From contig NW_026889802.1 of the NCBI RefSeq assembly GCF_033153115.1, positions 1,860,001-1,924,000 of the forward strand: a stretch of DNA of 64,000 nucleotides. Reading direction: 5' to 3'. The translations under genes were made by a program, and so were the position numbers. Below are positions 27,564-63,122 of this stretch, piece by piece. Numbering within the stretch: the first letter of the stretch is position 1; every line of letters begins with the position of its first letter. The notes beneath the pieces are model-generated. The model did no database searches, was not told the DNA's origin, and was given only the letters and a program-made list of their open reading frames with translations. This stretch comes from Saccostrea echinata. Lineage: Eukaryota.

Positions 27564-29494
27564 ACAATAGGCCCAAGGGCCTTAACGGTCACCTGAATAC
27601 AAAAATTTAAAGGATCCATAAAAGTATAAAATAAACTGGTAGATGAAGCTTTATTGCCTAAATCAAGAGAAATGGGATGACCAGGATCAACGAAATAATT
27701 AGTCTGTTACTCATTAACAACTCATAAAGTAAGTTCTTCTTGCCCCCATTTATCACTATCACCATGCAGACTATTAACAAAACAAAAATTCTTCGGTACT
27801 ATTTTTAACCCCATTTTATAATCTCTCAAATTGGCCTCTCTTGGTCTTTGAAGAAAATTAAAAAAGATAAGTTATTTTTGTTTCATTTTTATTTATCTGT
27901 TATTTACAAGTCCATCTGACCATTAAAACTACGAAAATAATTTCTGTATTATATATTAAAATTCTTGCATAATTCTCTTATTCTATTAACCTTTCAAGTA
28001 CATTATTTACAGTGATTTATTATCAAAAGCGAATGGCAAAGGGGAATAACTTCTCTCCGTAGAATACAAATCAAAAGAGTCCTGGCCAGAACCAGAACAA
28101 TTGACCAAATGGCCCAGATGTTAAAAAATCTGGTAAAAATACCCTTGCTTATTAAAACTTTTACTCTGTTTGTCTCCGATATGTCCAGGAGCACAGAAGA
28201 TTTTCAAGGAAATAGTGCATTTTCACTACAGATTTAACACAGTCCAACACTAACACTAGAACCAGGGTCATGAATTTCAACAATTTGGAAGAGGTACCCT
28301 CATCATTATAACTATGAACTTAGTTGAAGTTTTTCAAAGAATCAACACATTTTCTCGACACTATCAAAAGACAACCCCCCCCCCCCCCAAGAAACACCAG
28401 AACCCCTGACTCTGGGAAACATTGTAAGAAGCACCCTTGCTCATCATAACTATGCATTTTGTTTATCTGCTTAATACCCAGGAGCAGATATGATTATTTA
28501 ATAGAATTAATGCATTTTTACTATATTATCAATAGAGCCCCATCCTTACACCAGAACATCTGACCCAGGGGAAATGAAACTCACAATTCTGGAAAAAGCC
28601 CCCTTGCTCATTATAACTATAAACTTAGTTTCTTTGCTATTTAAAACCTGGAGCAGAAAAGAATATTTTCAAAGACGTTATGCATTTTCACAATATAATC
28701 AATAGAGCCCCCTTTCACCAGAACCCTCTACCCTGGGGTCACGGATTTAATAATTTTGGAAGAGGCATCCTTGCTTATCATAACCATGCACTTAGTTTGT
28801 TGAAATAATACCCAGGGGCAGAGAAGAAGATGTTCAAAAAAATTAATGCAGTTTCACTATATTATCAATAGAGTTCCGCCCTAACATCAGACCCCCCTCC
28901 TGCAGAACCCCTGACCCTGGGGCCACAATTATTACAATTTTGGAAGAGGCACCTTTACTCATCATAACTATGTACTAGTTAGTTTGTTTAATACACAGAA
29001 GCACAGAGCATTTCATAGAATTAATGCATTTTCACAATATAATCAATAGAGCCCCGTCCTAACACCATAACCCCTGACCCAGAGGTTATGAATTTCACAA
29101 TTTTGGAAGAGGCACCCTTACTGATCATAACTATATACTCTTTTTTTAATAGACAGGAGCAGAAAGAAAGATTTTCAAAGAAAAAATGCAATTTCACTAT
29201 ATTATCAATAGAGTCCCGCCCAAACATAAGAACCCCTGACCCAAGAGCCATGAAAATCCCAATTTAGGAAGAGACACCCTTGCTGATAATAGCCATATAC
29301 TTAGTTTGTTTACATAATACCCAGAAGCAGAGAAGAGGCACCCTTACCCATTCTTCTCTGTTCCTGTGTATTAAATAAACTAACTAGTGAGTTTGTTTAA
29401 TACACAGGAGTTTTCAAAGAAATAATGCATTTTCGCTATTAGCTGCAGATCTGTAGCTCGCTGGTCTGAAAAAAACGACGACGGACGAAAACAG

Positions 29495-30200: not shown

Positions 30201-33128
30201 ATGGCAGAAACGACAATTGCTGAGCCAAAGAGTTTTGACACTGAAGTTTAGTAAGTAACATAAATGAATAAATTGCCAAATGTTACACTTTGTTAATTTG
30301 AACAGCATTTAATAATTATTTTTACCCCTCTTCCAGTATGGAACACAATGAGAGCGAGTTGAAATTCCTTGATATACCATGGGAAGATGTGGTGTTCAAG
30401 TACATTATGCCTTGCCTTCCTCTCCAGACAAAGTTTCAGATGAGGAGAGTTTCCAAGCAGTGGTTAGAGATGGTCACCCTGTATTTTAGCATTAACAAGA
30501 CAGTAAATACTTGTCGTATTGCTAACAAAATGACAGTAGGTGCTCTGTCCATCATGACAAGAAACAACTCAAGTCTTCAAGATCTTGTATTGCGCAACTC
30601 TAAAGATTGGCTGACTGATGCTGTATTAATGCCTGTTTTAAAACAAAATCCCAAGCTTCAACAAATGGATATTTCCAATTGTTCTTTTGTGACTAATAGT
30701 TCTCTCCAAGTATTGGGAGTAAACTGTCAGAATGTGAAAGTTGTCTCCCTTAGTGACTGTCACTGGGTCAGTGTTGATGGATTGACAGTGTTAGCCATGC
30801 AATGTGTCAATTTAGAAAGCCTCGATCTCACTGGATGTTGGGGTGTCAATGATGAAGCAATCACACTTCTTGCCATACGTTGTAAAAAGTAAGACCAAGA
30901 ACATTCAATGTCTCTATAAAATTTTTAGAATTTAGATTAACTAGAGGTACTCACTACTGTTAGTGAGCTTTTCAAAATGATACCCCTGCTTCACTTTTTA
31001 GCTCACATGAGTCAAAGGCTCAAGTGAGCTTTTCTGATCGAAGGATGTCTGGCATCTGTCTGTCGTCTATTAACTTCTCACATTTTCGACTTCTTCTCTA
31101 GAACCACCGGGCTTATTTCAACCAAATTTGCCACAAAGCATCCTTGAAAGGGGATTCAAATTTGATCAAATGAAGGGCCATGCCCCTTTTCAGGGGAGAT
31201 AATTAAGAATTGGGTAAAATTTAATGGCATCTTTTTAAAATTTTCGTCTCAATAACCACTGGACCAGAAAAAAATGAATCTTATGTGTAAGCTTTATTAT
31301 ATAGTGTAGATTCAAGTTTGTTCAAATGATGACCTCCTGGGGTAGGGTAGGATAGGGCCACAATGGGCAATAAAAGTTTTACATAGGAATACATAGGCAG
31401 AATCTTTAAAAATCTTCTTACGAACAGCAAAGCCATGATTAGACATGTATATATATGGAAGCATACCCAGGTAGTGTAGATTCAAGTTCGTTCAAATCAT
31501 GACCCCCCCCCCCCCCCTTTCCAGGTAGGGTAGGGCCACAATGGCGGATCAAAGTTTTACCTAGGATTACATTGGAAAATTCTTTAAAAATTAAAATGTT
31601 CTCCTCAAGAATAGCAAAGACTTTACTAGTTATATTTATATGGAAGAATCCTTAAGTAGTGTAGATTCAAGTTTGTTCAAATCTTGGCCCCTGGGGTTAG
31701 AGTGGGACCTCGATGGTTTTACATAGGAATACAAAGTTATACATAGGAATATGTAAGAAAAATCTTTAAAGATTTTCTCAAGAACAGCAAATCCCTGATT
31801 AGTCATGCTTATATGGAAGCATCCTCAGGTAGTGTAGATTTAATTTTGTGTAAGTCATGACTCCCTACCCTGCCCTTTGGGGGTGGAGGGGGGGGGGCTC
31901 CCTACCCTGCCCTTTGAGGGTGGATAGGGGGACCACTTATTTATTTAAACTTTTCAATACTGAACTGATTTCTGCTTTTCTCTAGCCAAAGTGCTCATGG
32001 GAATGTGCCTCTTGTTTGTATGGTTGCATCCAGTGTTTGGCAGTTTCTCTCTTGCAAAGTTATACACCACTTCTTTTTATGAAAATGATCTTGAGCTTGC
32101 CCAAATGACCTTGAGTCTAGGTGACACCTCCAGGTGGTCTTTTTGTTCTATGTGCTGCCAATGTTTCTATTAAAAGCCATGTCCAGAAATTATAAATTTT
32201 TCTGCCGGTGACCAGTAACTTGTGTAAGTGATCAAGGTCATGACATATCTGGTCAAGTTATAAGTTATGATCTTTCAATGTTTCTCCATTGGAAAGAAAT
32301 GGACCAGACACAAAATATACACTTTTTCAGCTCTTGACCCTGAACTTAAACTTAGTCAAGGTCCTTACACACTCCCAAGTGATTAATATTTGTGTGAATT
32401 ATAAACTTCCAATGTTTCTTTTTAAGAAAGTTATGGACTGGGCTCAAATTATCCACTTTTTCTTTGTTGCCTGTGACCTTGAACTTGCCTTAATTCTTGA
32501 CAGACCCTCAGGTCATAAGCAATTTTTAAAGTATGATTTTCTGATGTTCATCTATAAGGAAGTTCTGATCCTGCATGATTGAATGGACAAACAGACAGAC
32601 AAGGTGACTCCTTTACCCCCCCCCCCCCCCCCCAACTTCAGGGGAGTAAAATAATAAGATATTTGTAAAATAGAAATTCATGATATGAATATTTTTATTC
32701 ATTGCATTTTACATTTATTACCAAAAGGTTGAGGTATTTGTCAATGGCCAAAATCTATGGACTCACAGATTATGCAATGGCAATTCTGGCCAGAGAGGCC
32801 ACTTCATTATGTCACCTTAATATTAGGGGATGCTGGAGACTCTCAGATGATTCTATTGGGCAAGTATCATTGTAATTTCAATATAAGATGTCTACGTTGA
32901 AAACTATTAGAAAAATAATTTTTTTTTGTATTTTTGCTTTGTAGGATTCTAGCAGAATATGCCAAAAATCTGAAAGCTTTAGAGGCACGTGAATGTAGAG
33001 ATATTACTGAAAACAGTCTGTATAAGCTCCGAAATAGAGGAGTCAAAATTGACGTTCGACCACCACAACCTCCCAGAGGACTGGCAGGGCTCCGGCACAG
33101 AAAACCGTGTCTGAACATACAGATTTAA
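30201..33128 (+). CDS. FBXL15: F-box/LRR-repeat protein 15, ~305 aa
   Basis: Exons 30201-30250, 30337-30888, 32728-32859, 32945-33128 (918 nt). F-box FLDIPWEDVVFKYIMPCLP..RRVSK, cysteine-containing LRRs (LSDCHWVS, LDLTGCWGV, NIRGCWRL), C-terminal GVKIDV..LNIQI. The start could be ATG 30338 instead. Confidence 0.9.
30938..32650 (-). mobile_element. Old minus-strand HINE in FBXL15 intron 2, interrupted by a younger HINE
   Basis: AACTAGAGGTACTCACT..GTGAGC..GATACCCC end at ~30939; degenerate TGACCTTGAACTT units at 32060-32580; GACA microsatellite and hairpin end at ~32586-32650. Confidence 0.55.
30996..32017 (+). mobile_element. HINE with Cg170-like ~165-bp central repeats
   Basis: 5' TAGCTCACATGAGTCAAAGGCTCAAGTGAGCT palindrome plus GTCT repeats; units containing GTAGTGTAGATTCAAGTTTGTTCAAAT; 3' GTGCCTCTTGTTT. 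Confidence 0.8.
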
Positions 33129-33145
33129 AATTGTTCAATTTTACA

Positions 33146-34045
33146 ATTTTAGCTCATCTCAACAAAGTTGGGGGAGCTTGTGTAATGCCCTTGGTGTCGG
33201 CGTCCCAAGTTAAAGTTTTTGGAGCAGATTTCTTTTCAAGTACTTCTATGCCCTGTATTAATCAGAGATGCATGGAGGATGCTTCTAGTGTGTTTCATTA
33301 TACCAGTCAAGGTTTCAGATGCTGCAAATTCAGCTAAAGAATGACCAGGTTAAAGTTTTTGGAGCAGATCTCATTTCCAAGTAACTATAAGCCCTATGTT
33401 GACCAAACTTGCATGGTTGATAAACTAAGGATGCACAGGCTTGCTACGGATGCTCGATCCGACCTACATTTTCCGGATCTTATTTCCAAGAAACTATAAG
33501 CCTTATATTGACCAAACTTGCAGGGATGATACACCTAAGGATGCACACTACAGGACTTGCTTCGGATGCTAGATCTGACCTACATTTTCCGGATGAGTGA
33601 CCAGGTTACAGTTTTTGGAGCAGATCTCATTTCCAAGTAACTATAAGTCCTATGTTGACCAAACTTGCATAGATGATACATCTAAGGATGCTCAATACTG
33701 GACTTGCTTCAGATCTGGATCTAACCTACATTTTCCGGATGAGTGACCAGGTTACAGTTTTTTGAGCAGATCTCATTTCCAAGTAACTATAAGTCCTATG
33801 TTGACCAAACTTGCATAGATGATACATCTAAGGATGCTCACTACTGGACTTGCTTCAGATCAGGATCTGACCTACATTTTCTGGATGAGTGACCAGGTTA
33901 AAGTTTTTGGAGCAGATCTCATTTCCAAGTAACTATTAGCTATATCTTGACCAAACTTGCATGGATGATACATCTAAGGATGCACACTGGACTTGCTTTG
34001 GATGCTGGATCTGACCTACATTTTCCAGATGGGTGACAAGGTAGA
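33146..34045 (+). mobile_element. HINE-like element with 146-bp tandem repeats in the FBXL15 3' UTR
   Basis: Starts TTTTAGCTCATCTCAACAAAGTTGGGGGAGCT..GGTGTCGGCGTC; GACCAGGTTA at 33599, 33745, 33891 (146-bp period); first AATAAA noticed after the stop codon is at 34347. Confidence 0.75.
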
Positions 34046-36248: not shown

Positions 36249-39200
36249 TCAGAGGTCAAACACAGGAAGTTCCTCCTCCTCCTCATTTTCCTTGTCACTG
36301 TCCAGAAGTGTCGGATCAATGTGGGGAAGTTCTCTCCGCCGCTTAGACTTATTTCTCGAGGCCTCATCTGTCGTTTCAAAGGAACTTAATATGATAGGAC
36401 TCTCACTGACCAAAGATTCATCTGAAATATATTTCATAAGTCCTTTGAAAAAATCTTAATAAGGAAAAAACAAATATTTCAAACAAATGTACATGTATTC
36501 ACAGAAAGAATTCAGTATTCGTGTATCTAAGTAGCCCAGTAGTTTGAAGATTTGCATGATAAACTGAATCAGGAGGATTTTTCTCTTTAATCTTTATTTA
36601 AGATTTAAATATCAAACATTGCATACTGATTTAATGCTTTCAAATCATTGCATTACAAGATGTGGTATATACCTCCTAAAATCTTAAAAATTTAAGAGAT
36701 GCCTGTTGTGTCCAATGTTTACTGATTTCTTTATACCTGTTTGTCCTGTCAGTGACATTGGAGGACTTTCCTCCTCTTCCTCATCCTGTTTCCTTTTTCT
36801 TTTTCCTCCCTTTGGTTGCCTATAAGTGCTGGAGGAAGACCCTTGAGAGAATCTGTCTAACAGAGAACTCAAACTGTGACTAGCCTCTTCAGAATTCTGC
36901 ATCCCATCTTTGCGAGCTACAATAATATGTAACAATACAGATTACCAAGAAAAAATATATAACTCATCCTTAAAAGCACTAATTAGCTCTAGTGTTTTAT
37001 AATTGGACAAGGTAAAATGAATCAATATTTAAAATTTTAAGACATTATTTTATCACTTTATATAAGGAAACCATATTTAAAAATGTGTATAAATGGGGGG
37101 GAGGGCTTGAGAATCTGAATTGATTGCAAATTTTGAAACCAATTTCCATCATTCAGACAGAATAATTATTAACCAGTTAACAATATCCATGTCTAAATAA
37201 TAAAGTCTGAGTCTTTCAATGTGTAATTGCTCCTAACCTCTACACATGGAAATGACTCTTCCCCAGAGTGAGTTTTTCTCCAGATTGTTTAAATGTCCCA
37301 CAATAAAAAGATGATGCCTGGCTCTAGTCAAAGCAACATTAGTCCTCCTGTAAATTATAATGAATAATATTAATGAAAATGAACAAAACTATCTAAGATT
37401 TGGTATATAATGAACAAAGTTGTATTATATAAAGCCTGTGTGGTTGTACATATACTTGTGGTTGTCTATAAAGCCTGTGTGGTTGTACATATACTTGTGG
37501 TTGTCTATGAAGCCTGTGTGGTTGTACATATACTTGTGGTTGTCTATAAAGCCTGTGTGGTTGTACATATACTTGTGGTTGTCTTTAAAGCCTGTGTGGT
37601 TGTACATATACTTGTGGTTGTCTATAAAGCCTGTGTGGTTGTACATATACTTGTGGTTGTCTATAAAGCTTGTGTGGTTGTACACTTACTTGTGGTTGTC
37701 TATAAAGCCTGTGTGGTTGTACACCTACTTGTAGCTCATAAAGTCTGTGTGGTGTACACTTGCTTCCGATTGTCTGTAAAGCCTGTATTGTTGTACACCT
37801 ATTTCTGATTGTCTATAAAGCCTGTGTTGTTATACACTTACTTTTGATTGTCTATAAAGCCTGTGTTGTTGGTGCGTACACAAGAAAGGATAATGATATT
37901 CCTTTCACCACCCTGGAATGCATCTACAGTTGAAACAAGGATGGACTTTGTTTCATTCTGACTGCAGTTTCTTTTTGAAAGAGAAAAATTTAATTGAAAT
38001 AAGTTAAAACACAACATTTCTGACCTTGATAGCTGAAGAGATTTGCCATATAATCTCATAATCCCCCCCCCCCCCCCCAAAAAAAAATCTTGGAAAAATT
38101 TATCCTATACTTTAAGTAGAAAACTATCTAAATGTCCATAAAATTTTAAAGTAAAAACATGTATACACTGCAGACTTTATTAGAGTTCTGAATCTGTGGT
38201 ATTTATACTGTTAGAAAAGTCAGCCCTTATATCCAAAATGAAATAGTGTGTTACTCATTTTGCAATCATTTCAAACCTTCTTATTATCTAAATAAGTCAA
38301 AAATGAATTAATTAAACACTTTATCTGCATCCCCCCCCCCCCCCACTTTGTAAACAGTAGTGGTAAATGTCAGGTACCTTTTGTTGAAAATGAAATACCC
38401 AGTACACATTGATTAACTCAATATTTAAACTTTTATAGGATAGGACATTTTTTTGAGATCCAAAAACATTTTGTTTTAGTTAGAGAGGGTCCTTAGTACT
38501 TTAAAAAGGCCCCTTAATACTTTAAAACATGGATGTAGTAAATAATTTGGTCAAAAGATCCATAAAAATATTCATTATAATGTGATGTCTTCAAATATGT
38601 AGGTCACAAGCCAAATTTGAGAGAAATTAACAGCACTGAAGGGGAATTAACTCTTATAACTACCGGTAACATAGAATGAGATTCTCCGCATACTTTTTCA
38701 TTCATGTTGTTTTAAGGACATTGGCAAGGTTCCTGGTTATCGTATAAAATTTTTCAAGAACTCTTTAGTAGGTTTAATTGTACTAAACAGGCTATATTCT
38801 GGATTGATTAACCTACCAAGCCAGCCTTCTTTTTTAGAATTTGTCTAATCAGTGTTTTTGCAATTCTCAGTGCATTTCCTATGTAAAATGTTGATAAAAG
38901 GGACCCACATAATTTTTTACCATAATATTTCTCCAAAAACCACTTATTTCATATAGTTTTTGTATTACATGTATATACATTATTGTATCTTCATTTCCTA
39001 TGACTTCTAGATATTTTGGCTGAAAACGTGTATATAGAAACAATACAAGGACATACCGGCACCGATCTTTATTTTTGAGTTACTTCCCTTAACAGCTATA
39101 ATTACATATTATCCATAATGGTCAAGAGAGTCAGACTGGTTGATTATTCTATCATGTAATTGACTGAATTGATTGAAACACATTGTCATAAAAATATTGG

Positions 39201-42200
39201 CATGGATTTATTTTAATTTTTATTCGTAGTTAATAAATGCTGCCTCCTTCATACAACCTAGGAACTGATCTCAGTCGGTCTACCTTTCAGCATAATTTAT
39301 GTCACATCTTTGCCCTTTCCAGCATACTGAGTATAACTATAGTAAATGACGACCTGTTGACTCTTTGTCCCCCTGAATACAATGTACAACAAAGCCATTA
39401 CTACTTTTCTTTCTTACACATGCTTTTGTTTACCTCTGTAACATAACGCTTTATTCGTTTTCACCGCTTAGAGAATTCTACACGGGAGATCACTCACAAT
39501 CCCCTTTTCATAAATGAAAAACCCATGTATTAAACCTTTTTTCTCCGGAAAACCCTGACTTGCCAATGTCCTTAAGCTCATTTTATAAGCATTATTTACA
39601 TGTAAGTTGCATATATATACCAAAAGTAGCAAATATCTCTCTATTATACATCAAATACCTTAAGATATGAAAATGAACATTTCAATTTCTATTAGATAAC
39701 TTGAAATATCCAGAAACTGAAAGTTTTCACTTGCATAAATAAATAAAATATGTATTAAAAAAATTGACCATTATGACAGAATTCAAAGTGCGTTAAGGCT
39801 AATTATATCAATGTCTTAAAATAGATATATACTGTAAATCTGGAAATTTTTACGTCAATTTATTTTTGCGAATCTGGGTCTAAAAGGTGTTGATTAATTT
39901 TTACGTTTTAAAATTTTGCGAATTGTCATTGGCGCTAAAAATAAAAAGCTCTTAAAATTTTCATAACGTACACTTTATAAGTTACAGATGTGCATACAAT
40001 GAATTATGCATGTACATACAATCACATTTCTTTCGTCGGGGTTTCATTATACACGAGAGTAAGTTCTTCGTTAATATCTGTTGTGCTAAGAATTTGTTGT
40101 TAGATAAAATAACTGGCCTTTCTTTCTTAGAGAAATAATTTAAAAGAGACATACTGCCAGTCAAACAATCGGACGATATTGAATGTAGTTAATGCAAGGA
40201 TTATCACGGGTAATTAGCTTGTAGTATGAACAGATGTTCACCGGGTTAAAAAAGACACCAGCTGTCAGAAAATTTTTTGTTTACATTTTTTGTTGTTGAT
40301 TTATTTTTAAGAAAAATATTTTTGCGAATGCAATGCACACACAAATTTGCTGAAAATCTATCTACAGTAAAAATTTCCAGATCTACGGTATTCAACCAGT
40401 CAAAATTCAACTTTAAGAATGGCTTATAAAAGAGTTTGAAGTATAATTGTAAATAAAGTCTACCTGCTGGTGCCTAGCTTGGCTATGATGCCATACATTT
40501 GGGATTTGTAGAGTGTGATCACCCCAATAGATGTTGAATCTACCCCGGCACTAATTAAAGCCTCTATCATAAATGCCACAAAATCTGCCTCCTTTTCATT
40601 TGAGAAACTTCCACTGGAGTCACTACTTTCTTGTCCATTAGAAACATCATAAAAACAAAGTGTGGGCAAGATATCCTAGGAGGAATTATCAAAGTTTATT
40701 CATCAGAATCACAAGCATATTGAAATATCACAAAATGTTAGTATCTAACTACAGGTAACTCTTGATAGCTCGAACTTCGATCTCTCGAAGTTCTTGATCG
40801 CTCGAAGTGAGTCTCCGGTCCCGAATTTTTCCCCTATATAACTAACCAAATTTACTCTTGATTTCTCGAACTCTTGATCTCTCGAAACCCTTGATCCCTC
40901 GAAGTCAAAATGCGGTCCCGTTATGCATATTCTATTGGAATTTACCCTCGATACCTCGAAGTGGCTTTGTGTATACAAGGTTATATAATTAGCACCTTTA
41001 CCTGGACATCTAAATGGCCCCAAGCAGAAGTCGCGGGTCTCGAGGAACGAGATGTTTATTCAGGTAACACTTATGCTGCGAGGTGATAATTGGTTTATGA
41101 TTAATCATATTTAGCCTATATGCTGTTTAAATATTCATCAACAACTGTCTTACGATAATTTAGAGACGCAGTGTAGTGAAAAGTAGTAGTCGGTTAAAAG
41201 ACGAAATACTAATTTAATTTTTATTTCGAGTCAGTGTCAAAGTTAAACGAAATATGAAAAAGCAGAAACAGCCTCAATGTCAATGCGACGAGTATTATTA
41301 GACAAATACAGAATTGCATTCAATGATCATGTTTGGAATAGTCAATGCTATGTACGACGCTGTAAAATGTCGTTTTTATGTAATGAATGTGTTGTATGAT
41401 GTCCATATTATAAAGAATAAATAAATATATATGAAATGACAATATACATTTTTTGCTTTACTCATTTTAATGAAATATTCATCTAAATTATGAAAAAATA
41501 TCGTTGTTTTATAAAGACCACATGTAAGAGGTTAGCACTGCATGAAAATCATTACATCCGGTAAGACTAATTTTAAAACCTGTCAACAAACCCTGAAAAT
41601 TCTGGACTCTTGAAAACTCGAACTCTTGATCTCTCGAAATTTTTCCTCGGTCCCACGGACTTCGAGGTATCGAGAGTTACCTGTATATTACAGTCTAATT
41701 TGCCTTTACCAAAACAGGTGCCCTGTCTGTGGCCTCAATACCATCCAGCAGCTGACCTTGATAAAACAAAGTGTTGGCAAGGTTGCTAATGACTGGGTGA
41801 CATCTATATTGTGTTCTCAGCAGAGTAGGAATGTGGCCCTGCAGTAGAAAATATCCATGTTTAAAAATCCACTTATAACTACTGTTTCTCAGCAGCAAGA
41901 CCTGAATTAGACTAAGACTAACAGTAATCAGAAATTGGTTCAAGTTCTACAGAGACAATCCTACCATTTTGATGAGTCTGTCAAACATTGTCTGCTCCAG
42001 TCCCTCTGAGTGGCTGGCCTCTGAACCTTGAATTGTCGGATCTAATTGCTACAAATTAAAATATTATACATGTATGTCAAACCTCTACTAATTCTGCTTG
42101 TGAATCCTCCAATGAGGAACAGGGATCTTTGTCAATAGACTTTCTTATTCAATAATTTAGTGTATGATAAGTGAGGAAAACGAAGACATGAGGACATACC

Positions 42201-45200
42201 TTAGGATCTCCTACAAGCACCAACTTCTCACAAGCACACTTAGACATAGGAAATAGAGATGCTGGCTCTGTCATCTGACTGCACTCATCTAATATAACCA
42301 CCTGTCAAAAATTCCAGACATCCATGAATCCGTTATTTATTTTCTGAGATTTTACTCTCTACACTGTAGTCTTTAATTTGGCTAACATAATAAAAAGAAA
42401 TGCAACAATGACATTTGCTTACTGGAAACTTTAAGTCTTTGAGACTGGGAGCAACACATGAAGCACAAGTGACCCCAACAACAGCAACACTGCCAAGCTT
42501 CTGAAATATTGAAAAAAGACGACTAGTTTGTTAATTTGTTTTTTTAAGATGATAGTTGAAAAATTTACTGTATTAAAGAAACACTTGACTTGTTACTACT
42601 GACAAAAAAGAAAAAAACACATGCACACAGACATATCAAACTTGAAAGAAATCAGTGACTGTGTAACTTATAAAAGTAGCAGTGACTATTAATTTTTAGA
42701 GTAACTTGCTTCTTTCATATTTCTAACATTACACAACTGAGTTATATGTATTTGTTAAAACTTCTGAAGACAAAAGAACAGATTTCAAATGCATAATAAA
42801 AGAAATCAATGTTAATAATTGCTGTTTGTGGCTTTTAAACTTACCTTCTTATTTTCACCAAGTTTATGTTTCTCTATACTTTGACGCACATTGCTAAAAA
42901 TACAAGTACAGTATTAAACAGATTTACAGATACCAGTATAAGTAAAACTTTTAAAATCACTTAATAATAATATAATAAACACTAGTTAAATTGATTCCAT
43001 CATCATTAGCCACAGGTTCTGATCTGATTGGAAATCTTTGTGAATGAAGATAGAATGTCAAATACACAAAAATTTTCATGTGCATGCATATATACATGAA
43101 TTACTTTAAATCAACACAAAAAATCAAGTTTATCTTGGTTTCACAAGTGAGTACAATAGTAATATCAGATATAAATCTTGTTAAGTATGGATCTTTAAAA
43201 TCACTTTAATCATTGCTTAATTATTACAATATGTTTAAACAAGAATCATTTATATATGTAAGCTTTTTTCAGACTCTGACTAGAGTGACACGTACTGTTT
43301 CTCTGAGGGACTGAGATCACCACTTCTCATCATTTCCTGTAGATCTTTAAGCTCCTGGCTTTCTGTACCAGTGGCATGTACACTACAACACAATACATAA
43401 TCAACAGCCAGTAATAATGTACATTACAACATAATCTTATGAACAGCCAGTAATAATGGCTACAATACATCTCTGCACAAGTGATTTTTATATACCGTAT
43501 CAGTGGAAATTTTAGCGAGACATAAATTTAGCTATTTACATGTATCATTAAATAATGGTAACTAATTTTTAGTGAGAATCAATTTTAATGATTTTAAAGT
43601 GCCTATTAAAGAAGCTATTACAAATAAAACGCAATTTATTTTTAGCGATATTCAATTTTAGCAATCTCTACACCCTCGCTAATAATGCCAAAATTAAATC
43701 CTTGCTAAAAATTCTGTTTATACAGTATCTAATAGAAGGAGGCAACATATAAGTCACTTTCTTTTCTTGAAAATACCACAACAGAACAACACTATACAAT
43801 TATTGACCTTTGATGAGGTCTACACAAGACTATATGGACCTGGTCAGGTATTGGTTGACCGAGGCCGAAGGCCAAGGTTAACCAATACCTGGCCAAGTCT
43901 GTATAGTCACAAGTAGACCAAATTCAAAAGTCAATAACCATTTCATTAAATAATCAGGAATTTTACCACGTTTTTGACACTAGTTCTTGTCTCTAACAAA
44001 TACAAACACTTATAATATTTACATTCAGTGTCATTTTCTTTATGAAATCCATTGTAAACCTACAACATTCAATACCCTATAACACACGTGAAACCTTGTC
44101 ACTGCATGGTAGAATACAGTTTAAAATCTGTTTAAAAGTGGAAAACTATATTATAAAACAATAAACATTCAACCATTAACTAATAAAGGAGTTTAGTCTT
44201 TGTGGTACTGGCATCTGTCATATTTACCATACCAACGACACATGCTTTAAAACATACAGTTTGATTGGTCAAAAAAAAAGGTAAGCCAATTTATGGTTGG
44301 TCAGAAGGGAAAACCCAAATAAACCTCTCAGAACTTCATTTTGAGGTGAACTCACTCTGAAGTACACCTCAGGAAAGGGAATCTAGACCAATCAGAGAGA
44401 ATCAAAATTCCTGATCATTTAATAAACTCATTTACAGACTAACCTGTAAGGTAACACTGGTTTAGCAATTTTCTTCATGCTCCCCACTCTAATAAAGTCT
44501 TCAAAGCCAATATCCAGTAATCTATAATGAATAAAATTTGTGTCTATGTAAAACCATATGTACAATAACTGTACTAAGTAAATGCGATTGAATTTGCAGA
44601 TGTATAATTTTGCTTACTTTTCCCATGGCACATTATTGCATGTGTTTGAATTCACTCAGTAACAAATTACTCTTCATTATATATACTCGTGTTTGAATTG
44701 TTACATAGATCTATACTTTAAAAGTCGAACATTTCTAGTGTTTAACTGAGCTGTCCAAACGAATTCCATGTTGGACTTGGTGAGATGTTGAACCACTCTT
44801 TTTTTTTTAACATCACACTATTCCTGAGCATAGGTGGGGTCAGCTATATATAATTTGCATTTGTTGATGTTCAACAATTACAGAACAGATTGATTAAAAT
44901 CTGCAGTGGGGTATAGGAAATTGACATCAAGATTTTCATCTTAAAATTGCAAACAAGGAAGCCAGCACAAAATATGTCCTTATTTAAAGTAAAAGGTATA
45001 ACAAAACATGTATGGATTTGGTTCTCAAGCAGAATGTGTTTTGTCAAACCCTTGAACCAAACTGTTGCCTTCTGCCTACAAGTTTCAAGGAAACATTTTT
45101 GGTTCTTGAGTCAAACAAAATGTATGTTGTCCTCAAAGCCAGTCAATAAATGTACAATGTTCCTAAAACTTCTTAACTTTTCTAAGACATTTCTTAATAT

Positions 45201-48200
45201 ATCTATAAATATTGGTATATATGAACAGTATTTTCCTGCAGTTACTTTGCATTAACTGAAATTGTAATTGTAATAGATTTCTCTTCGAGAGAAATATCAT
45301 GCAGTCTAAACCTCTCCAAGATAACCAATACCATATGCACCACATTTTCAATAACACCTACCCCATGAGAACCCTGTCCACAGCCACATTTGTGATAGAG
45401 GAAATGACACCTACCCCATGAGAACCCTGTCCACAGCCACATTTGTGATAGAGGAAATGACACCTATCCCATGAGAACCCTGTCCACAGCCACATTTGTG
45501 ATAGAGGAAATGACACCTACCCCATGAGAACCCTGTCCACAGCCACATTTGTGATGGAGGAAATGACACCTACCCCATGAGAACCCTGTCCACAGCAACA
45601 TTTATGATAGAGGAAATGACACCTACCCCATGAGAACCCTGTCCACAACCACATTTGTGATGGAGGAAATGACACCTACCCAATGAGAACCCAGTCCACA
45701 ACCACATTTGTGGTGGAGGAAATGACACCTACCCCATGAGAACCCTGTCCAAAGCCACATTTTGATGGAGGAAATGACACCTACCCCATGAGAACCCTGT
45801 CCACAGCCACATTTGTGATGGAGGAAATGACACCTACCCCATGAGAACCCTGTCCACAGCCACATTTGTGGTGGAGGAAATGACACCTACCCCATGAGAA
45901 CCCTGTCCACAGCCACATCTGTGATGGAGGAAATGACACCTACCCCATTAGAACCGTCCACAGCCACATTTGTGGTGGAGGAAATGACACCTACCCCATG
46001 AGAACCCTGTCCACTGCCACATTTGTGGTGGAGGAAATGAGGCCTACCCAATGAGAACCCTGTCCACAACCCCATTTGTGGTGGAGGAAATGACACCTAC
46101 CCCATGAGAATCCTGTCCACAGCCACATTTGTGGTGGAGGAAATGACACCTACCCCATGAGAACCCTGTCCACAGCCACATTTGTGGTGGAGGAAATGAC
46201 ACCTACCCCATGAGAACCCTGTCCACAGCCACATTAGTGATGGTGGAAATGACACCTACCCCATGAGAACCCTGTCCACAGCCACATTTGTGATGGAGGA
46301 AATGACACCTACCCCATGAGAACCCTGTCCACAGCCACATTTGTGGTGGAGGAGATGAGGATCTTCCAAGGGTAAGGTAGTCCTGGGGTGTAGCTTCCAT
46401 TCACTTCAAACACCCTCACTAGGAATCTTACCATAACAGACAACAGAAAGCTCTTCCCGGCACCGAACACTCCTACAACAAACCCTTAATAGTTGTCACA
46501 GTGAAAAGTCACTAGTATAACTTCTTTTGTATAGGAAAAGGCCCACAACTATACACTGAGTTACTATCCAATTTGTTAAAACAGCATTATCTTTACATTT
46601 TATAATTCTTGTCACACAAAAACATGTAGCTTGTATTTTGTGTTCAGTACAACTCAGATGTGATGTCACAGTGATAAACTGTTTTTGAAATAGGTAACTT
46701 TTACTTTCATGTGCTAGAACAATTTAAATATTACGTTAAACAATCTTGTTTTGCTGCGTACACAAAATGAGTACATAAATTTTCATTGCTTTATAAAGCA
46801 CATTATGTAAAATATATGCATATCTACTAGGTGACATAAAATAAAAGTAATCCCTTAATTGATACCAGATATTTGGTCCAAAATAATAGTGTGTAACTCT
46901 TGACCAAGTGAACTGTTACCAGAGATATAAATCAGTGCTATATTAAAAATGATCCAATGTTAAAATTGTTTATGGTATATTTATGATGAAAACAATCATA
47001 AAAAAGTACATTGTAGTTACTGTGTCCATCTGTAAAATCAAGGTGAAATAAAATATCTATAAGTGAATATCAAGGTGAAATGAAATATCTATGGGTAAAT
47101 TTATGTGAACTCATCCTCTCCATACCATGTATAAGAAGAAGGGAGGACACTTCACTGTGACTGTCCTCACAAAACATGGCTGCCAGTCTCCTTAATGCTG
47201 AACCCTGGTCCATGTTCAGAGAGTAGGTCATCATAAACTCAGTAACCAACTCATTCTGGAAAACAAAATAAGCATTAAATCTCTCTGAGTGTGCCTAACA
47301 AAGAGATTCTGGAACATTAAATAACCAAGTTATGACATGTGATGAAAAACAAGATCTTTTGAAGTACTAGAATCCATTCAGAGGAGAGCACATTTTTCTA
47401 CCATCAATTTGCGAGTCTCCAGCCTCAAAATTTATTTCAAAATTTTTTGTAAATAAATACTTCTGCATCAAATCATTAACCAATTTAATGGAAATACTTT
47501 ACAAAACTCCTATCAACAGTATAACATTGAGCACTTCTTAAAAACATTACCATTGCATATACAGGGACATGAATGTTAGAGGTTGATTTGCCCTGATTTA
47601 GTCTGGGAGGCTGGAATCTCTTGTGTGCCTTAGAAGCATCAGCACTGTCCCTAAATAAAACACAATACATAAATATTAAAGGAAGAATTTATCATTAACA
47701 ATATGATACAAGTTGTTTCACATTCAAAGTAATTCCTTTATTTACTATGCCACTTACACACTGAGAAGTTGGCTGAGTATGGGCAGACAACTCTGTTGTA
47801 CATTGTCCTGTATGTTGTCAAGGTAACTAAGCTCAGAACTGACATTTCCAGCTAACACAGCATGACAAGGAGCTGCAACAAATCACGGGAAATAGTAGAA
47901 AGACAGGCAAGAAATAATTTGGCATTTTTTTAAGCATTGTGTAGGAGGTTTGTTGTTCAGATTCAAGGTTTGTCAAGTAGCATTTAATTTACATACATGT
48001 ACAGTCAAACCTTAATATATCAAACACAGCTCTCAAAAATGTTCAAAATATGCATGTATAAGAGTTTCATGTTCATAATAAGATTAGGAACAAAGACTAC
48101 TATGGCATATCATGTTCAAGATACTGAAGCTCAACTGCAGTTCAAATATCATGGCAGTGGCTAAAATTGTAAACAGACAAATCAAAATTTCCTGGAATCT

Positions 48201-51200
48201 AGAAGATTTTTTAAAAATCTAGACTACTTTATAAACTATTTAATTTGCATGGATGTTATTCTTTGTTTGAATTTTTTATAATGATCAATTAAACAAAAGT
48301 ATTCATAAAATTACAAAAACCTTCATTCTTCCAATTAGAGGGTGAGAACTTGGACACTGGCTCAATCTCCACTTCATTCCCTGATGTTGGTCCATAGTAT
48401 GTGCTTTTGGCCAGAAAGGTACAAGTAGAATCAAAATTCAGATCTCTAGATACTATCCATAAATCATCTGAAATATAATATGCAATCAACTAAAGAAATT
48501 CATTTGATTAAAACAAATTAAGATTTAACTGTGATAATGTTTCAGATGAGGTCAAATTTTAATTCTCAGTTAGGGCATTTAAAATAATGTAACTGAAATG
48601 CTTTTCAAGTTTCGACGATTCTCATTTTTCTAACCTTTGGAGAACAGTGTTGAGGAATCTTTTCTGGATAATCGAATGAAGTATTTTCTTTGCATTTTAT
48701 TTTCCCTCTGGTACTTCTGTTTTGCCCATGGCTGAAGTGAAATTGAATATAGATGCATTTTTTTCGAATTCAGTAAAAAATAATGGATTGTCTACTGATT
48801 ACCAAGAGACTTACATTTTTGAAGTGGGCCAGAATGCTTTCCATTGACTTCTGCAGGTATTGGCACTGACAATAGAACATGATATGGTGCTGACGGAAAT
48901 ATGATGTCACACTGGCAGCATCTGTCAATCTTACCTTAGCTCCACCCATATGATGTAGCCCTACATTTCCACTGGAGTCAGCCCACTGGAAAAACTGTAT
49001 TACAAAATATGATAAACATGTACATGTATAACTACATTAGATACTTTAATACATGATGGTACAATGGTGGTACAATGATAAATACTTTTTCTGGGTCTAT
49101 TGTTTCTCAGAATAGATTATATACAGTATTCAGTGTACCTTACACCTCTGACTGACTGGGTTGGTACAGGAGTAGAAATATCTTCCTTTATTGGGTCCCT
49201 CCTTCCTGACTTGGATCAGTTTGGAGGAGACCCCACAGTGACAGGGGGGTAATGGGGGTCCTGTATCCCTAGACTGACTGCTCTGAGTGTTCTTCACTGA
49301 AATCAAGATTCATAAAAAATCTTAATATTGGTTATTGCTAAGAAGCTAGTGAAACATTATTTCATCAACTTTAATTTTTTTTGAGATATAAATGTGAAAT
49401 GAGAGATGTAAACAACAAATACCTGGAAATGTTAAACTTGTGGTATCTGTTTTTGACAAAACCTGATGATACTGCTTTGACAGATCAAACAAAATGATGT
49501 TCAAGTGCTCTGAAACCAAAGGAAGAATATTTTACATTTTCATTAACTTTAATAATCAAGAAAAGAACAAATAAATAAATTGTGGTAAAGTAGAGGTACA
49601 GATATGATCTAGTTGACATTGGGGCCTATTCATATTGATATAAATGATTTAAGTGCCTACTTGCACTGACCTCTGGGAGCTACTGATGAGGACCCCCAGT
49701 TGTATCCATATTGATCTGTAAGAGTTGTTAAGAGGACCTATTGCCAAATTGTATCTGTACTGAACTGTAAGAGTTGTTAAGAGGACCTATTGCCCAGTTG
49801 TATCTGTATAGATCTGTAAGAGTTGATATGAGGACTAATTGCCCAGTTGTATCCGTATTGATCTGTAAGAGTTGTTAAAAAGACCTATTGTCCAGTTGTA
49901 TTTGTATTGATCTGTAAGAGTTGATAAGAGGACCTATATCCCAGTTGTATCTGTATTGATCTGTAAGAGTTGCTAGGAGGACCTATTGCCCAGTTGTATC
50001 TGTATTGATCTGTAAGAGTTGATATGAGGACCTATTGTCCAGTTGTATCTGTATTGATCTGTAAGAGTTGATATGAGGACCTATTGTCCAGTTGTAGCTG
50101 TATTGATCTGTAAAAGTTGATATGAGGACTTACTGCCCAGTTGTAGCTGTATTGATATGAGGACCTATTGTACTGAGATCTGATTTGTGACCTCTGTGAC
50201 CTGAGAAGACAACTTATTTGTACACTTTCAATCTATTTGTATTGACTTCTGAGGATAGACATAGACTGTTTTTACTTCTCAACACAGATATGAGGACATG
50301 TATGTTGACCTTCACTTAGAGAGCAGGCCTGTTTGTGATGACACTATACAATTGTGTGTACACTGTATTAACACATGATGACCTGTTTGTTCCGACCTTT
50401 GAGAAGAAATATGCAGACATGTTTACAGGTTATACTTTCTAGAAAGATGATACCAATACCTTTTGTACTGAATTTTGAAGGCAAATATGAGGAATTGTGG
50501 GTACTATCCACTGAAAGGCTGAAACAAAGAGCTGTTTGATAATGTACTGACCTCTGAGAGCAGACATGAGGACCTGTTTGTATTGTAGAGGAGAGGAGAA
50601 CATGGTTGGTATGACAATCTTCCTGACTGGCGTGGGGTTGTTTTCTACCTCTGACAGACTGGCAAACTGAAGGTCATCCCATAAACTTCTCTGTAAGATA
50701 AGAGGATTTTAATGACTGAACAGTTCTTAAAGCATATAAACATTTTTTTTTTCCCTAGGCTAAAGAAAACTTCACAAACCTTTGTTCCAATTAAGATGTT
50801 TGGTGAGGAGGTAGAATTGATTATTGGAGGATTAAACCTCTTCTCACGGTTGATCTGTATCATAGAATCTGCTGAACTGTCTGTCTGTGGCACTCTCTGG
50901 CCAATAGGGGAGTTAACTTCAGAACTGGCTTTGGAGTTTGCACCAGCAAGTACTTTCTGATTGGTGGGTTTAGTGAGTACTATGTCTCCAGACTTGGGGG
51001 ACTGGCTGGCTGGAGAATTATACATGTATTTGTAAGACTTCTGCTCTGGGGATTCATACAGACTTGGGGAGGAACCTAGACATATAAGGTCAAGGTTAGG
51101 GGAAATTCCTACACACTGATTGGTGGAGTTTGTGAAGTTCTGATGATGTGAGGAATAACCTTTCTGCATGACATCTAAACTAGAAGAATCTGTGCTGTGG

Positions 51201-54200
51201 TTTGATGTATCACAATTTTCCACATTTCTTTGTGTTATGACCTTCTTGGCAGTGGATTGATTACTTTCCAAAAATATACTGTCATTATTATCACCATTAG
51301 ATGAATGTTGCTCACCATTAGATGAATGTTGCCTGCCTTTAAAGCAGAACTTCCGACTTTTTCTAATACCCACTGTACCATTACAAAATGTGAGAGTATC
51401 GGCATTTTCTCTCTGTGCCGGTGTATTCAATGCAGTGCTCCTGCGAGAGCTCATTTTAGAAGTTTGATTAGATGCAGCTGTCATATGATTTGTGTCCACA
51501 TTATTATTACGTCTTTGTGACTCTGAATTTATCTTTCCCGAAGATGTATTGAAGTCATAAGAACAGTTCAAATAATCCAAGTCTTCCTCATCATCTACAG
51601 ATATAAATTTCCCCCACTTTGACGCAACAGATTCTGCATTATCTACAGGATTTCCTTCCACACCCCCTGTGTTAAAGTTCTCAGGATTGGTATCTAACTC
51701 TTGTCCTGAAGAATTCACTGAACCATACTCTGTATCTCTGACAGAATATGACTGCGAATCTTGACATTGATCTTTAAATGGCTGACTCCTCAGGCCTATC
51801 TTAGGTTGGTCCCTTGCTGATCCCACATCAGGAGAAAACATCTTCCTGGGTCTTCCATACACATTGTCTTTACAGATCTCTTCATCCTGTGAATTAAAAA
51901 CTGTGACAGATTCTGCTGTAACAAAGCTGTTGTTTTTACTTATATTGTTCAGCACCTCTTCTTCTGTTTCCAGCAGTGTATCAGGACTGTTGTATGACAT
52001 CTGATGACCTAATCTTGTTGTGGATTCTACGTTCCTGATGGAATTATTTCCAAAGTTGTTGTGATTTGAATATTTTCTTTTCACATAAGAGGGTTTGGCA
52101 CTATTCACTGAACTACCCACTTGTGATAAATTCTGTAACAGAATTTTTTTTATTTGATATTCACATATTTTACTAACAAGAACTGAATAATTATATACAA
52201 GAGATGTTTGTGAAACACTTATGCCCCCCCCCCCCAATAATTGGAATTTTTCTAAGTCCAAGGGACATAATTCTGTCAAAAATTGCTCGATCGTACCCAA
52301 AACAGAACTTGACCTAGATATTTTTATGATAAATCTGTATACCAAATTTCATTTCAGTATGTGCAACCTCTGTGAAGAAAATGAATGGAAACTGTTGGTG
52401 GACCGATAGACAGACAGACCGACCAACAGACAGCAGCAAAGCAATATGCTCTCCCTTCTTTGAAGGGGGGCATAAAAACACATACGAATATTCAACAGAA
52501 TGGTCTAAATTCTTGCCTCAGTATTTCTCTGTTCAGCTTGTAACTTGTCTATCCAATCTCCATGGACAGTTTCTTCTGACTGAATTTTGAAGTCTTAATA
52601 ATGAACGAATAAAAAGTACTCAATTCCTATTGCATATGTTGCAAACATGTAATAGTCTTTAAACATGTAATTTTCTTTGTCAGTTTTCAAATATGATAAG
52701 AATGTGCAAGATTAAATCTTAAATATGTAAAAGATTACCTGTTTTCCCACCTTTGGGGCCACGTCTTACTTGACTGAGGATGATATTTGGTCCAGTCTTA
52801 GAATTAAACCCAGTCTGTTGTAATGTTGGAATTCTGTGTCGCTTAGCAGTCATGCCAATGACACTGCCTCTCATTCTGTATGAATCCATCCTCTCAGAAA
52901 TCTATCAAATGTTTGTACACCATATACATTATAAAGCTAAATGAAAATGTTCATCAGGCTTTAAAAGAAGCATAAAATGCGTAGTTGTCTTGACTATTGT
53001 GGTTTAATACCCAAGTTAAAGCAAGTGAAACAGCTCTCTTGATCATCATTTTGGCACTGCTCTACAGAAAGTAAAAGAGGCCCTCTAATCCAATGTAATT
53101 AAATTATCATTTTTTATCAAAAAAACTTGACTGTTCAGAAAAAAAAATTAAATAATCTTGACCTTCTTGGAGAGATCCTTCTCTTCCATTTTCTGAGGAC
53201 TTCTGATGAGTTCTGATGGGTGAGGGAGACCCTTGAGAGCTAAATGTTAAATAGTATAAAAATTTGACAATGTTCACAAGAATATACATATATACACTAT
53301 ATCCATACTGCAAAAAATTTTTGAAACTGATAAATATGTAAAAAAAAATATTTTGAGCATTTTTTTGAAATGCTGCATTTGGCTCAAAATAACTTTAAAA
53401 AGCATTTTATATAAAAAGAGTCCCAGAAGTCTCAATGGTGTCACAATGCAATCTTGTTCGTTAGTTCATTGGGTGTTTGTTGTTTTTTCTTCTCTCAACA
53501 GCTTTGTAAAACTTCAGAACCCATTTGTGTCAAAGAAAGTTACACTATAAAATTTCTTCCTATGTTTATAAGACTTTGGAGCCTTCCTGACCGCATCCTA
53601 GCCCCAGGGAACACAATTTGAACAACCTTGATTTTTTTCTATACAGCAAAACTCGTTTAGTACGAACACGGATATTGCGAATTCACAGATATAGCGAAGT
53701 TTTCTTGGATCCCTAGCTAGATCAATTTAATGAATTCCTTATACGGATATAAAAAATTACGGATATAGCGAAGTGATTTCACAGGTCCCAGTGACTTCAT
53801 TATAACCGAGTTTTACTGTATATAAGGAGGTTTGTTAACATGTTGAGTCTTTCTGGCCCAAAGTATTATGGAAAACATTTTTAATTTGATTCTATCCTAT
53901 TCTTGACTATTTCTATCTCTGAATTAGAATCCTCACCTTTATATGCTAATTTTGATTAAAACTGCTTTTTAAGTTCTGGAGAAGAAGTTGAAAGCATTTA
54001 TGCACAATGACTGACAAACATGTACAGCAATAAGTCATACAAGTCACTGAGCTGATTTCAGGAACAAAGTAACAATAGGAAGGAAGACTTACAGTGACAT
54101 GGTTCTGTCTTTGGCACACAGTTCATTTCTGTACTATCCACTAAAGATGACAACATTGATGTGACACTGCAGGAGTCCATCTTCTCATTGATCCATCGCT

Positions 54201-61874: not shown

Positions 61875-63122
61875 ATGCTTGGGAAATGGCGTACAGCCTC
61901 AGTTACCTATGATCAGTCACATCTCAATCATAATGGATCAAAGGGGAGAAATATTAGTGGCAGCTTTATTGAATTATGTGTAAGCAACTACATGTTATCC
62001 CATGACCCTTCAGAGCACCAAAAGGATCTACCTCCACACAGAATGGCAGGAATTATCATTATGAGTATCCTGACTGTTGTCATGGTGATAGCCAATATCT
62101 TGTCAATATGTACCATAGCAACCAATCATATTCTGCAACAGTCATCATACTACATATTTGTTTTGAGCCTGGCTATAGCAGACCTCCTAACAGGTGCCAT
62201 TATTATGCCCATCTATATTATCTGGGAATACAATGGTCAGTGGCCATTTGAAAAATTCTCCTGTGAAATTGTGACAGCTCTAGACATTGCATTTAGTGAC
62301 ATATCCATCTACATCCTGGTTCTTATAGCTCTGGATAAGTATATTTACATAACACAACCTTTACTGTACCATACAAAGCTAACAGTGACCAGAGCTCGTC
62401 TACTTATTGTAGCCCTCTGGGTCATCTGGTTGACCTTTGCCTTTGTGTCCATATATGGAGATATTGCACTGGACGAAAAATCTACAAACCTGTTTTCTAA
62501 CAATTGTATATTCATAATGAATGACATCTACACAGGAATAACAGGCATTGTGGCTTTTGTGATACCATTCCTAATCCTGACATACACTGGTATCAGAATC
62601 TACTGCATAGCTCACCTCCATCTCAGGAAAATCTCTCGCTGTCATCTTGATCCCCTTAACATCAGTACAGCTACTTTCACTGAACTGGAGAATTACCAAG
62701 TAAAGACAAACAACAGTGGAAGTGGAACTCTTCATTCAACTGCTCAGCATTACAACAGACCATCAGATGTTTCTATCAGATCTGAAAAACTAATAAAGAA
62801 GGCAACGTTATGTAAACCATTTGGAACAGTGGTGATTATTATTGTTTTTTTCCTTATAATGTGTGCCCCCTACTGGATCGCTACAGGCTCAGATATTTTC
62901 TGTCACTGTGTGGCTCCCTGGATATATGAAGATATTCTAGCAGTTGTCTATAATCTCAACTCACTTGTTAATCCATTTATATACATAATGACAGACAGGC
63001 AATACAGAGCTGCAGTAAAAAGATTACTAATTAAATGTCACAATGTTCTGTGCAAAAGCAAGCATGCTACCATCAACAAAACTAACACTCCAGGCAGTAA
63101 CTGTAGACAGAGACATTTATAA
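61875..63122 (+). CDS. Class A (rhodopsin-like) GPCR, biogenic-amine-receptor-like, 415 aa, single coding exon
   Basis: Seven hydrophobic helices; SLAIADLL, WPF..C, D3.32, DKY in place of DRY, FVIP, CAPYW, NSLVNPFIY; N-terminal sequons NGS and NIS. The ATG directly follows an acceptor (TTTTTTCTTAAATAG). Confidence 0.92.
   Translation: MLGKWRTASVTYDQSHLNHNGSKGRNISGSFIELCVSNYMLSHDPSEHQKDLPPHRMAGIIIMSILTVVMVIANILSICTIATNHILQQSSYYIFVLSLAIADLLTGAIIMPIYIIWEYNGQWPFEKFSCEIVTALDIAFSDISIYILVLIALDKYIYITQPLLYHTKLTVTRARLLIVALWVIWLTFAFVSIYGDIALDEKSTNLFSNNCIFIMNDIYTGITGIVAFVIPFLILTYTGIRIYCIAHLHLRKISRCHLDPLNISTATFTELENYQVKTNNSGSGTLHSTAQHYNRPSDVSIRSEKLIKKATLCKPFGTVVIIIVFFLIMCAPYWIATGSDIFCHCVAPWIYEDILAVVYNLNSLVNPFIYIMTDRQYRAAVKRLLIKCHNVLCKSKHATINKTNTPGSNCRQRHL

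What the first reader, a model, noticed from the sequence alone, without database searches (positions are those of the whole stretch)
45354..46353. 18 extra copies of a splice donor behind the helicase motif I/Ia exon, all predicted poison
Seen: 19 near-identical 53-bp units including the real exon end. All but one extra copy (45466, GT to AT) keep |GTAGG. Reading through the first donor gives ATG GGG TAG, so use of any downstream donor adds a premature stop. A TCAT microhomology between exon (CTCATC) and intron (GTCATT) could have seeded the first duplication. Inference: either the spliceosome reliably picks the first of ~18 equivalent donors, or copy number tunes ZGRF1 output through nonsense-mediated decay.
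Basis: partly seen in the sequence, partly recalled or inferred. Interest (0 to 1): 0.7.

Follow-up and report, generated by a model that had tools for sequence, protein, structure and literature searches.

The report
Splice-donor minisatellite in oyster ZGRF1 intron
In a rock oyster's ZGRF1 DNA-repair gene, the end of one exon and its splice signal are copied 18 times into the next intron, but the assembled transcripts use only the first signal, so it is likely a harmless repeat of a kind known from human and lancelet genes, here unusually common in this and neighbouring genes.

Summary
The array is real: 19 copies of a 53-bp unit (45350-46358) spanning the donor of the helicase motif I/Ia exon of a Saccostrea ZGRF1-like gene; 17 of 18 extra copies keep GT. 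In 4 of 4 runs laid on the exon, one spliced contig joins it at the first donor straight to the next exon, and no contig of the repeat unit was laid (contigs hide rare isoforms). The 'poison' stop is ordinary: 4 of 6 phase-2 introns of this gene have it. GT retention matches neutral drift (17 seen, 16.9 expected), and the TCAT seed is not supported. This is a boundary-spanning minisatellite like human F7, CBS, ABCA7 and amphioxus 'mirages'; the scan found the same kind before in this genome (parkin, pyruvate carboxylase) and other invertebrates. In ABCA7, one-unit retention did not vary with repeat length. What is added here is density: 9 of 48 introns in ZGRF1 and a neighbouring cadherin gene carry copies of their own donor, 2 of 48 of their acceptor, and at least 13 of 51 locus-specific arrays in 1.16 Mb sit on a protein-verified exon boundary (12 of them near this window).

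The parts
46313..46472 (-). ZGRF1-like coding exon with helicase motifs I (GVFGAGKS) and Ia (SSTTNVAVD); motif names recalled
   Evidence: spliced contigs
46307..46315 (-). authentic donor GGG|GTAGGT, phase 2, first intron base 46312; in-frame TAG at 46311-46309
45350..46358 (-). 53-bp minisatellite, 19.1 copies; unit = last 39 nt of the exon + first 14 nt of the intron
45462..45470 (-). the one dead pseudo-donor (GT>AT, changed base 45467)
45350..45361 (-). last copy's intron start (GTAGGTGTTATT), where unique intron resumes
44444..44521 (-). next exon, 78 nt, phase 2-2 (skipping it would keep the frame; no skipping seen)
37428..37871 (-). second donor-spanning minisatellite of the same gene, 39 bp x 11.5, behind exon 37970-37842; copies 2 and 3 have lost GT
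   Evidence: first donor used in 4 of 4 runs
49695..50156 (-). third, diverged array (49 bp x 9.4) resembling the end and donor of exon 50690-50552
   Evidence: (4 copies pass, best score 38 against threshold 34)
43376..43458 (-). two-copy 39-bp duplication across the acceptor of exon 43382-43296; the upstream copy has AA in place of AG
36252..52000 (-). ZGRF1-like gene, the 23 exons covered by P0002 (further upstream exons not mapped)

Best explanation
This is a minisatellite whose unit is the exon's last 39 bases plus the intron's first 14, the assembled ZGRF1 transcripts are spliced at the first donor, and the extra donors are likely tolerated passengers, not a regulatory device. One 53-bp duplication across the exon-intron boundary likely arose by slippage or repair, then expanded by unequal exchange (inferred). 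It survives because the most upstream of several equal donors is preferred, as shown for human F7 and inferred here. Any small leak to a later donor would carry a stop at +2..+4 and is predicted to be removed by NMD, which cleans up rather than tunes. Such arrays are common in this gene and its neighbours, mostly at donors.
For: Shown: in X1, X2, X4 and X5 one contig of 4.5-7.6 kb covers 46471-46313 and continues directly with the next exon. In X1 and X5 the contig coordinates leave exactly 479 nt for six exons that sum to 479, so no 53-nt insert. Depth over the single unit included at each end of the array equals the main contig alone (14.9/7.54/15.1/23.8 seen, 14.88/7.55/15.06/23.83 expected; 6.28/6.42/10.1/6.48 seen, 6.28/6.41/10.06/6.47 expected). 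GT intact in 17 of 18 copies against 16.85 expected from the 3.2% per-site departure elsewhere in the unit. Over 10 donor arrays, GT is intact in 8 of 10 second copies, 8 of 10 third copies and 96 of 113 later ones, so no purge of near donors (the later class includes a few overruns past array ends). An in-frame stop at +2..+4 occurs in 4 of 6 phase-2 introns, and a stop within 53 nt in 16 of 22 introns. Predicted folding does not single out donor 1: its GT unpaired probability is 0.10 against 0.05-0.26 for the others. Precedent: PMC1557585 (abstract, introduction, discussion), PMC3087553 (passages).
Against: Logan contigs drop rare variants, and NMD would lower the unstable forms further, so a leak of several percent cannot be excluded. 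It was not tested whether the sequenced animals carry the array. The array's interior was not in the laid stretches. The runs are only guessed to be RNA, though their contigs are spliced at GT-AG. Upstream-first choice was shown in mammalian cells, not molluscs. In human 6-16 and CBS two downstream copies are used too (PMC1557585, introduction), and in ABCA7 repeat length does change splicing, through skipping of the next exon (PMC5954066).
Confidence: 0.82

Rival explanations
1. Downstream donors are used often, the products are destroyed by NMD, and copy number sets ZGRF1 output.
For: 17 intact copies of the donor with identical 9-mer context; every simple use adds a stop before motifs II-VI. 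ABCA7 shows that one-unit retention can occur and is NMD-sensitive (PMC5954066, passages and section 21).
Against: No unit-containing contig in 6 runs laid across. No sign of selection on the GTs. In ABCA7 the retention was 2 +/- 1% and unaffected by VNTR size. F7 uses only the first of 5-9 identical donors.
Confidence: 0.06
2. Array length affects splicing indirectly, for example by promoting in-frame skipping of the 78-nt next exon, as ABCA7's VNTR does for exon 19.
For: The next exon is 78 nt and phase 2-2. ABCA7 exon 19 skipping rose with VNTR size.
Against: All 4 loose ends at 46313 run into exon 44521-44444, and the joint 43382-44444 is present in 4 of 4 runs (36 further joints were not shown). 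No length polymorphism has been shown here.
Confidence: 0.07
3. Inner copies act as in-frame 12-nt microexons (CAG|GGTTCTCATGGG|GT, adding four residues), which would escape the stop.
For: The unit holds an AG 12 nt before each donor, and the insertion keeps the frame (sequence).
Against: The bases before that AG are purine-rich with no pyrimidine tract. Contig coordinates leave no room for 12 extra nt in X1 and X5, and the loose ends go straight to the next exon in 4 of 4 runs.
Confidence: 0.02
4. The array is an assembly artefact.
For: No DNA reads were laid on it.
Against: Copies differ by patterned substitutions shared between neighbours and by two small deletions. Similar arrays of different units sit at many other exons.
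Confidence: 0.03

Closest known systems
Human F7 intron 7 37-bp VNTR (Borensztajn et al. 2006, PMC1557585; read: abstract, passages, introduction, discussion)
   Same: First unit spans the exon-intron boundary, identical pseudo-donors follow, only the most upstream is used.
   Different: F7 has 5-9 copies with 4 exon bases per unit and is a proven polymorphism; here 19 copies with 39 exon bases, polymorphism untested, mollusc.
Human CBS IVS13 (15-20 copies), 6-16 intron 2 (25 pseudo-sites), LMNB2 (100 bp x 10-15), PDGF intron 4 (81 bp x 16-18), as summarised in the introduction of PMC1557585; primary papers not read
   Same: Same architecture and similar copy numbers; LMNB2 and PDGF use only the authentic donor.
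   Different: CBS and 6-16 also use two further copies; none was detected here at contig level.
Amphioxus 'mirage' minisatellites (Adh3, BflGb6, BflGb9; PMC3087553, passages read)
   Same: Tandem copies of exon-intron boundaries at either end of exons in a marine invertebrate, with normal splicing; described as possibly general in that group.
   Different: Mirages show length instability, somatic at Adh3; untested here. No bivalve report was found.
Human ABCA7 intron 18 25-bp VNTR (De Roeck et al. 2018, PMC5954066; passages and section 21 read)
   Same: Unit includes the donor; use of the second copy gives a premature stop and NMD.
   Different: Unit starts at the GT with no exon part; length is polymorphic and drives skipping of the next exon, which was not seen here.

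Membership tests
Exon-intron boundary minisatellite (F7 type / mirage) | Head-to-tail repeat whose first unit spans an authentic exon-intron junction | tested here: met
Exon-intron boundary minisatellite (F7 type / mirage) | Splice site reiterated in the intron, many but not all copies intact | tested here: met
   17 of 18 extra copies keep GT
Exon-intron boundary minisatellite (F7 type / mirage) | Normal mRNA made from the authentic site | tested here: met
   4 of 4 runs; contig level only
Exon-intron boundary minisatellite (F7 type / mirage) | Locus-specific unit, not a transposon satellite | tested here: met
   own-genome search matched only this locus (lower bound); no hit elsewhere in 1.16 Mb
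VNTR | Copy number varies between alleles or cells | not tested
Regulated unproductive splicing (AS-NMD, poison isoform) | A premature-stop isoform is actually made | tested here: inconclusive
   none at contig level, but contigs drop rare forms
Regulated unproductive splicing (AS-NMD, poison isoform) | Selective conservation of the alternative site | tested here: not met
   GT retention equals neutral expectation; orthologous introns could not be compared
Regulated unproductive splicing (AS-NMD, poison isoform) | Isoform rises on NMD inhibition and its share is regulated | not testable with these tools
   needs bench work
ZGRF1 orthologue | GRF zinc finger plus AAA_11/AAA_12 helicase domains; best hits named ZGRF1 | tested here: met
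   P0002 probably derives from this same genome, P0003 and the mussel proteins do not

The most novel reading that the evidence does not exclude
In rock oysters splice donors are hotspots that seed minisatellites: in array-rich regions about one intron in five carries copies of its own donor and most intronic minisatellites start at an exon boundary, which would point to a splicing- or transcription-coupled DNA duplication process at 5' splice sites and make oysters a natural, genome-scale test of first-donor selection.
Probability: 0.25. Interest if true: 0.6.

Novelty: new member of a known kind. Interest (0 to 1): 0.28.

Why it matters
The array itself changes little: it extends a known oddity to one more gene and suggests that first-donor choice holds in a mollusc against 17 intact competitors. 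The density matters more. If intronic minisatellites in oysters start at splice donors far more often than chance (7 of 8 non-ascertained array-bearing introns here, against 10-19% expected), something about donors promotes local duplication, a question left open in the amphioxus paper. These arrays also mislead gene prediction: my own exact-match mapper first jumped into an acceptor array.

Tried and rejected
RNA structure hiding the later donors: rejected, donor 1 is no more open than the rest. Selection against near donors, as suggested by dead copies 2 and 3 of the 39-bp array: not general, 8 of 10 and 8 of 10 intact against 96 of 113. TCAT microhomology as seed: the terminal copy reads TTAT, so it needs an extra mutation. 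The 39-bp array as a fossil of the ancestral exon: cannot be polarised, since distal copies match Ostrea (H, H) but mussels match the present exon at these sites. Run search: no holder is on record as RNA; the splicing of the contigs is the evidence that they are RNA. X3 and X6 were laid only downstream, where the 46-nt overlap cannot tell the donors apart, so they are not counted for donor choice. Donor-motif enrichment in array units was clear on the window's contig (6 of 27 against 1.1 expected) but not on seven other contigs (2 of 24 against 1.1; 10 of 24 against 6.5 at the looser threshold, P 0.07). Pfam verified only 5 of 57 upstream-edge frames, and missed the finding's own exon; 2 of 58 downstream-edge frames had weak DUF hits that I discounted. 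NCBIfam added 1 new exon among 5 tried. Literature searches with no relevant bivalve paper. The primary 6-16 paper is not held. No supplements were read; the amphioxus paper's additional files 4-6 may bear on unit comparisons.

Full report
Observation. Tandem Repeats Finder reports a 53-bp array at 45350-46358, 19.1 copies, 94% matches. On the minus strand there are 19 donor-like sites from 46312 to 45361, spaced 53 nt apart except one 51 and one 52. The unit is the last 39 nt of the exon plus 14 nt of intron. Seventeen of 18 extra copies keep GT; the copy at 45467 reads AT. Two copies equal the exon end at all 39 positions, the others differ at 1-5, and the majority of copies differs from the exon at one base, so the array is young or kept in step with the exon (inference). 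A search of the own genome with the exon end and one unit gave 8 matches, all at this locus.

The gene. The exon's peptide finds proteins named ZGRF1-like: Saccostrea echinata P0002 at 98% and Ostrea edulis P0003 at 96%. P0002 probably comes from this same genome and is not independent. It maps as 23 exons between 52000 and 36252. The exon 46472-46313 ends in phase 2, and the split codon is completed by exon 44521-44444, giving DRVLMGLLDIGFE as in both oyster proteins.

Which donor is used. The run search listed six runs, all assembled contigs, guessed to be RNA. Laid on 46250-49690, which holds the exon and one extra unit, each of X1, X2, X4 and X5 (3 samples, 2 studies) gave one contig of 4.5-7.6 kb spliced at GT-AG introns, leaving the exon at 46313 and running straight into the next exon. 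Laid on 37790-45425, X1, X3, X5 and X6 gave the downstream exons (its tables were cut). For X1 and X5, which are in both calls, contig coordinates leave 479 nt for six exons that sum to 479. Depth over the included repeat units equals that of the main contig alone at both ends. So no extended or repeat-containing contig was laid.

The poison argument. Reading through the first donor does give GGG TAG, and a protein cut there would lack most of the helicase. But the stop is part of the donor consensus in a phase-2 intron: 4 of the gene's 6 phase-2 introns have a stop at +2..+4, and 16 of 22 introns have one within 53 nt. Non-GT positions of the unit depart from the majority at 26 of 804 sites (two copies with deletions left out), which predicts 16.85 intact GTs of 18; 17 are seen. 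Across 10 donor arrays the second and third copies are no more often dead than later ones. Local folding leaves donor 1 no more exposed than the others, so order, not structure, is the likely cue (inference from F7). The TCAT microhomology compares the exon with the repeat's own junction; the terminal copy reads TTAT, so the seed is unproven.

Known relatives. Human F7 has a 37-bp VNTR over the exon 7 donor in which only the most upstream site is used and later sites take over in order when earlier ones are mutated; the same paper lists 6-16, CBS, LMNB2 and PDGF (PMC1557585). Amphioxus 'mirages' duplicate either boundary without disturbing splicing, by an unknown mechanism (PMC3087553 passages; lead from an earlier scan note). 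Five searches found no bivalve paper on such arrays. The scan has earlier, unchecked notes on the same kind in this genome (parkin, pyruvate carboxylase) and in another oyster, octopus, urchin, abalone and an annelid.

The surroundings. ZGRF1 has two more donor arrays (39 bp x 11.5 at 37428-37871; a diverged 49 bp x 9.4 at 49695-50156) and a two-copy acceptor duplication (43376-43458). The 39-bp array's first donor is also the one used, in 4 of 4 runs. I sampled 1.164 Mb: the window, 400 kb beside it and 100 kb from each of seven other contigs. Of 154 arrays with period 20-250 and at least 3 copies, 59 were locus-specific with period up to 130, and 51 remained after collapsing local duplicates. 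Their units hold a strong donor motif in 8 of 51 against 2.2 expected from shuffles; the excess is on the window's contig (6 of 27 against 1.1), not elsewhere (2 of 24 against 1.1). A neighbouring Fat4-like cadherin (P0131) maps as 27 exons; 6 of its 26 introns hold copies of their own donor (one single copy, one at the threshold) and 1 of its acceptor. With ZGRF1 this makes 9 of 48 donors and 2 of 48 acceptors, while the same probes passed in another intron for 1 of 48. Counting protein- or family-verified exons, 13 of the 51 arrays derive from a boundary: 3 in ZGRF1, 7 in the cadherin (one weak), and one each beside exons hitting TIGR01578, Paf67 and CAP-ZIP_m. Twelve of the 13 lie on the window's contig. 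Three more look the same by eye (L062, L063, L037) and are unverified. Leaving out the two introns by which the genes were chosen, 7 of 8 array-bearing introns have boundary-derived arrays (6 without the weak one), against a chance of 0.10-0.19 each; P is 8e-7 to 8e-4. The sample is small, regional and partly chosen by the finding.

Mechanism. Shown: the architecture, first-donor use at contig level, neutral decay of the donors, and recurrence in neighbouring genes. Inferred: a single boundary duplication expanded by unequal exchange, tolerated because the upstream donor wins and any leak is degraded. Tolerance explains why such arrays survive, but not why intronic arrays start at boundaries more often than elsewhere; that excess is the open and more interesting part.

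Verdict. A real, new member of a known kind, most likely without regulatory function. Interest 0.28. The bolder reading, that oyster donors seed minisatellites genome-wide through a splicing- or transcription-coupled process, has probability about 0.25 and would merit 0.6.

Noticed in passing
window 37428-37871: Distal copies of the 39-bp array translate as NHTGFIDNHK, identical to the Ostrea edulis protein, while the exon and the two nearest copies read NNTGFIDNQK/NRK; mussels have N and Q/E. Either the array is old and keeps an earlier exon state, or exon and copies exchange sequence.
   Followed up: partly
L028-L033 (G000:C53 about 1,963,600-2,013,300): Fat4-like cadherin gene with boundary-derived arrays in 6 introns (one match weak), including an 87-bp x 9 acceptor array (L030:4398-5188) with perfect copies of the acceptor and exon start, plus one single donor copy.
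   Followed up: yes
L014:7444-7912, L015:2353-2558, L021:9841-L022:575: Arrays behind exons of a MiaB-like methylthiotransferase gene (CDKAL1, name recalled) and a Paf67-domain gene (eIF3L, name recalled); the L015 array starts just inside the intron and its origin is unclear.
   Followed up: partly
L062:8371-8849, L063:9206-9754, L064:4992-5296: Three donor-spanning arrays within 17 kb on another contig, likely one WASH-complex subunit gene; only L064 has a Pfam hit.
   Followed up: partly
G000 samples: Locus-specific arrays are unevenly spread: 27 in 464 kb on C53, none in the 100-kb samples of C30 and C40, 9 in that of C60.
   Followed up: no
window 12648-15047: 57-bp x 42 array whose unit reads as a 19-residue repeat, broken by occasional stops, following an ORF start at 12587 on the plus strand; coding status unknown.
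   Followed up: no
window 5700-9300, 30302-30892, 61875-63122: Exons resembling S-adenosylmethionine synthetase, an F-box/LRR protein and a single-exon GPCR; names recalled from the translations.
   Followed up: no
window 7516-9035, 28429-29336, 33476-34042: 146-168 bp arrays with copies elsewhere in the sample, resembling oyster transposon-linked satellites (family resemblance recalled).
   Followed up: no
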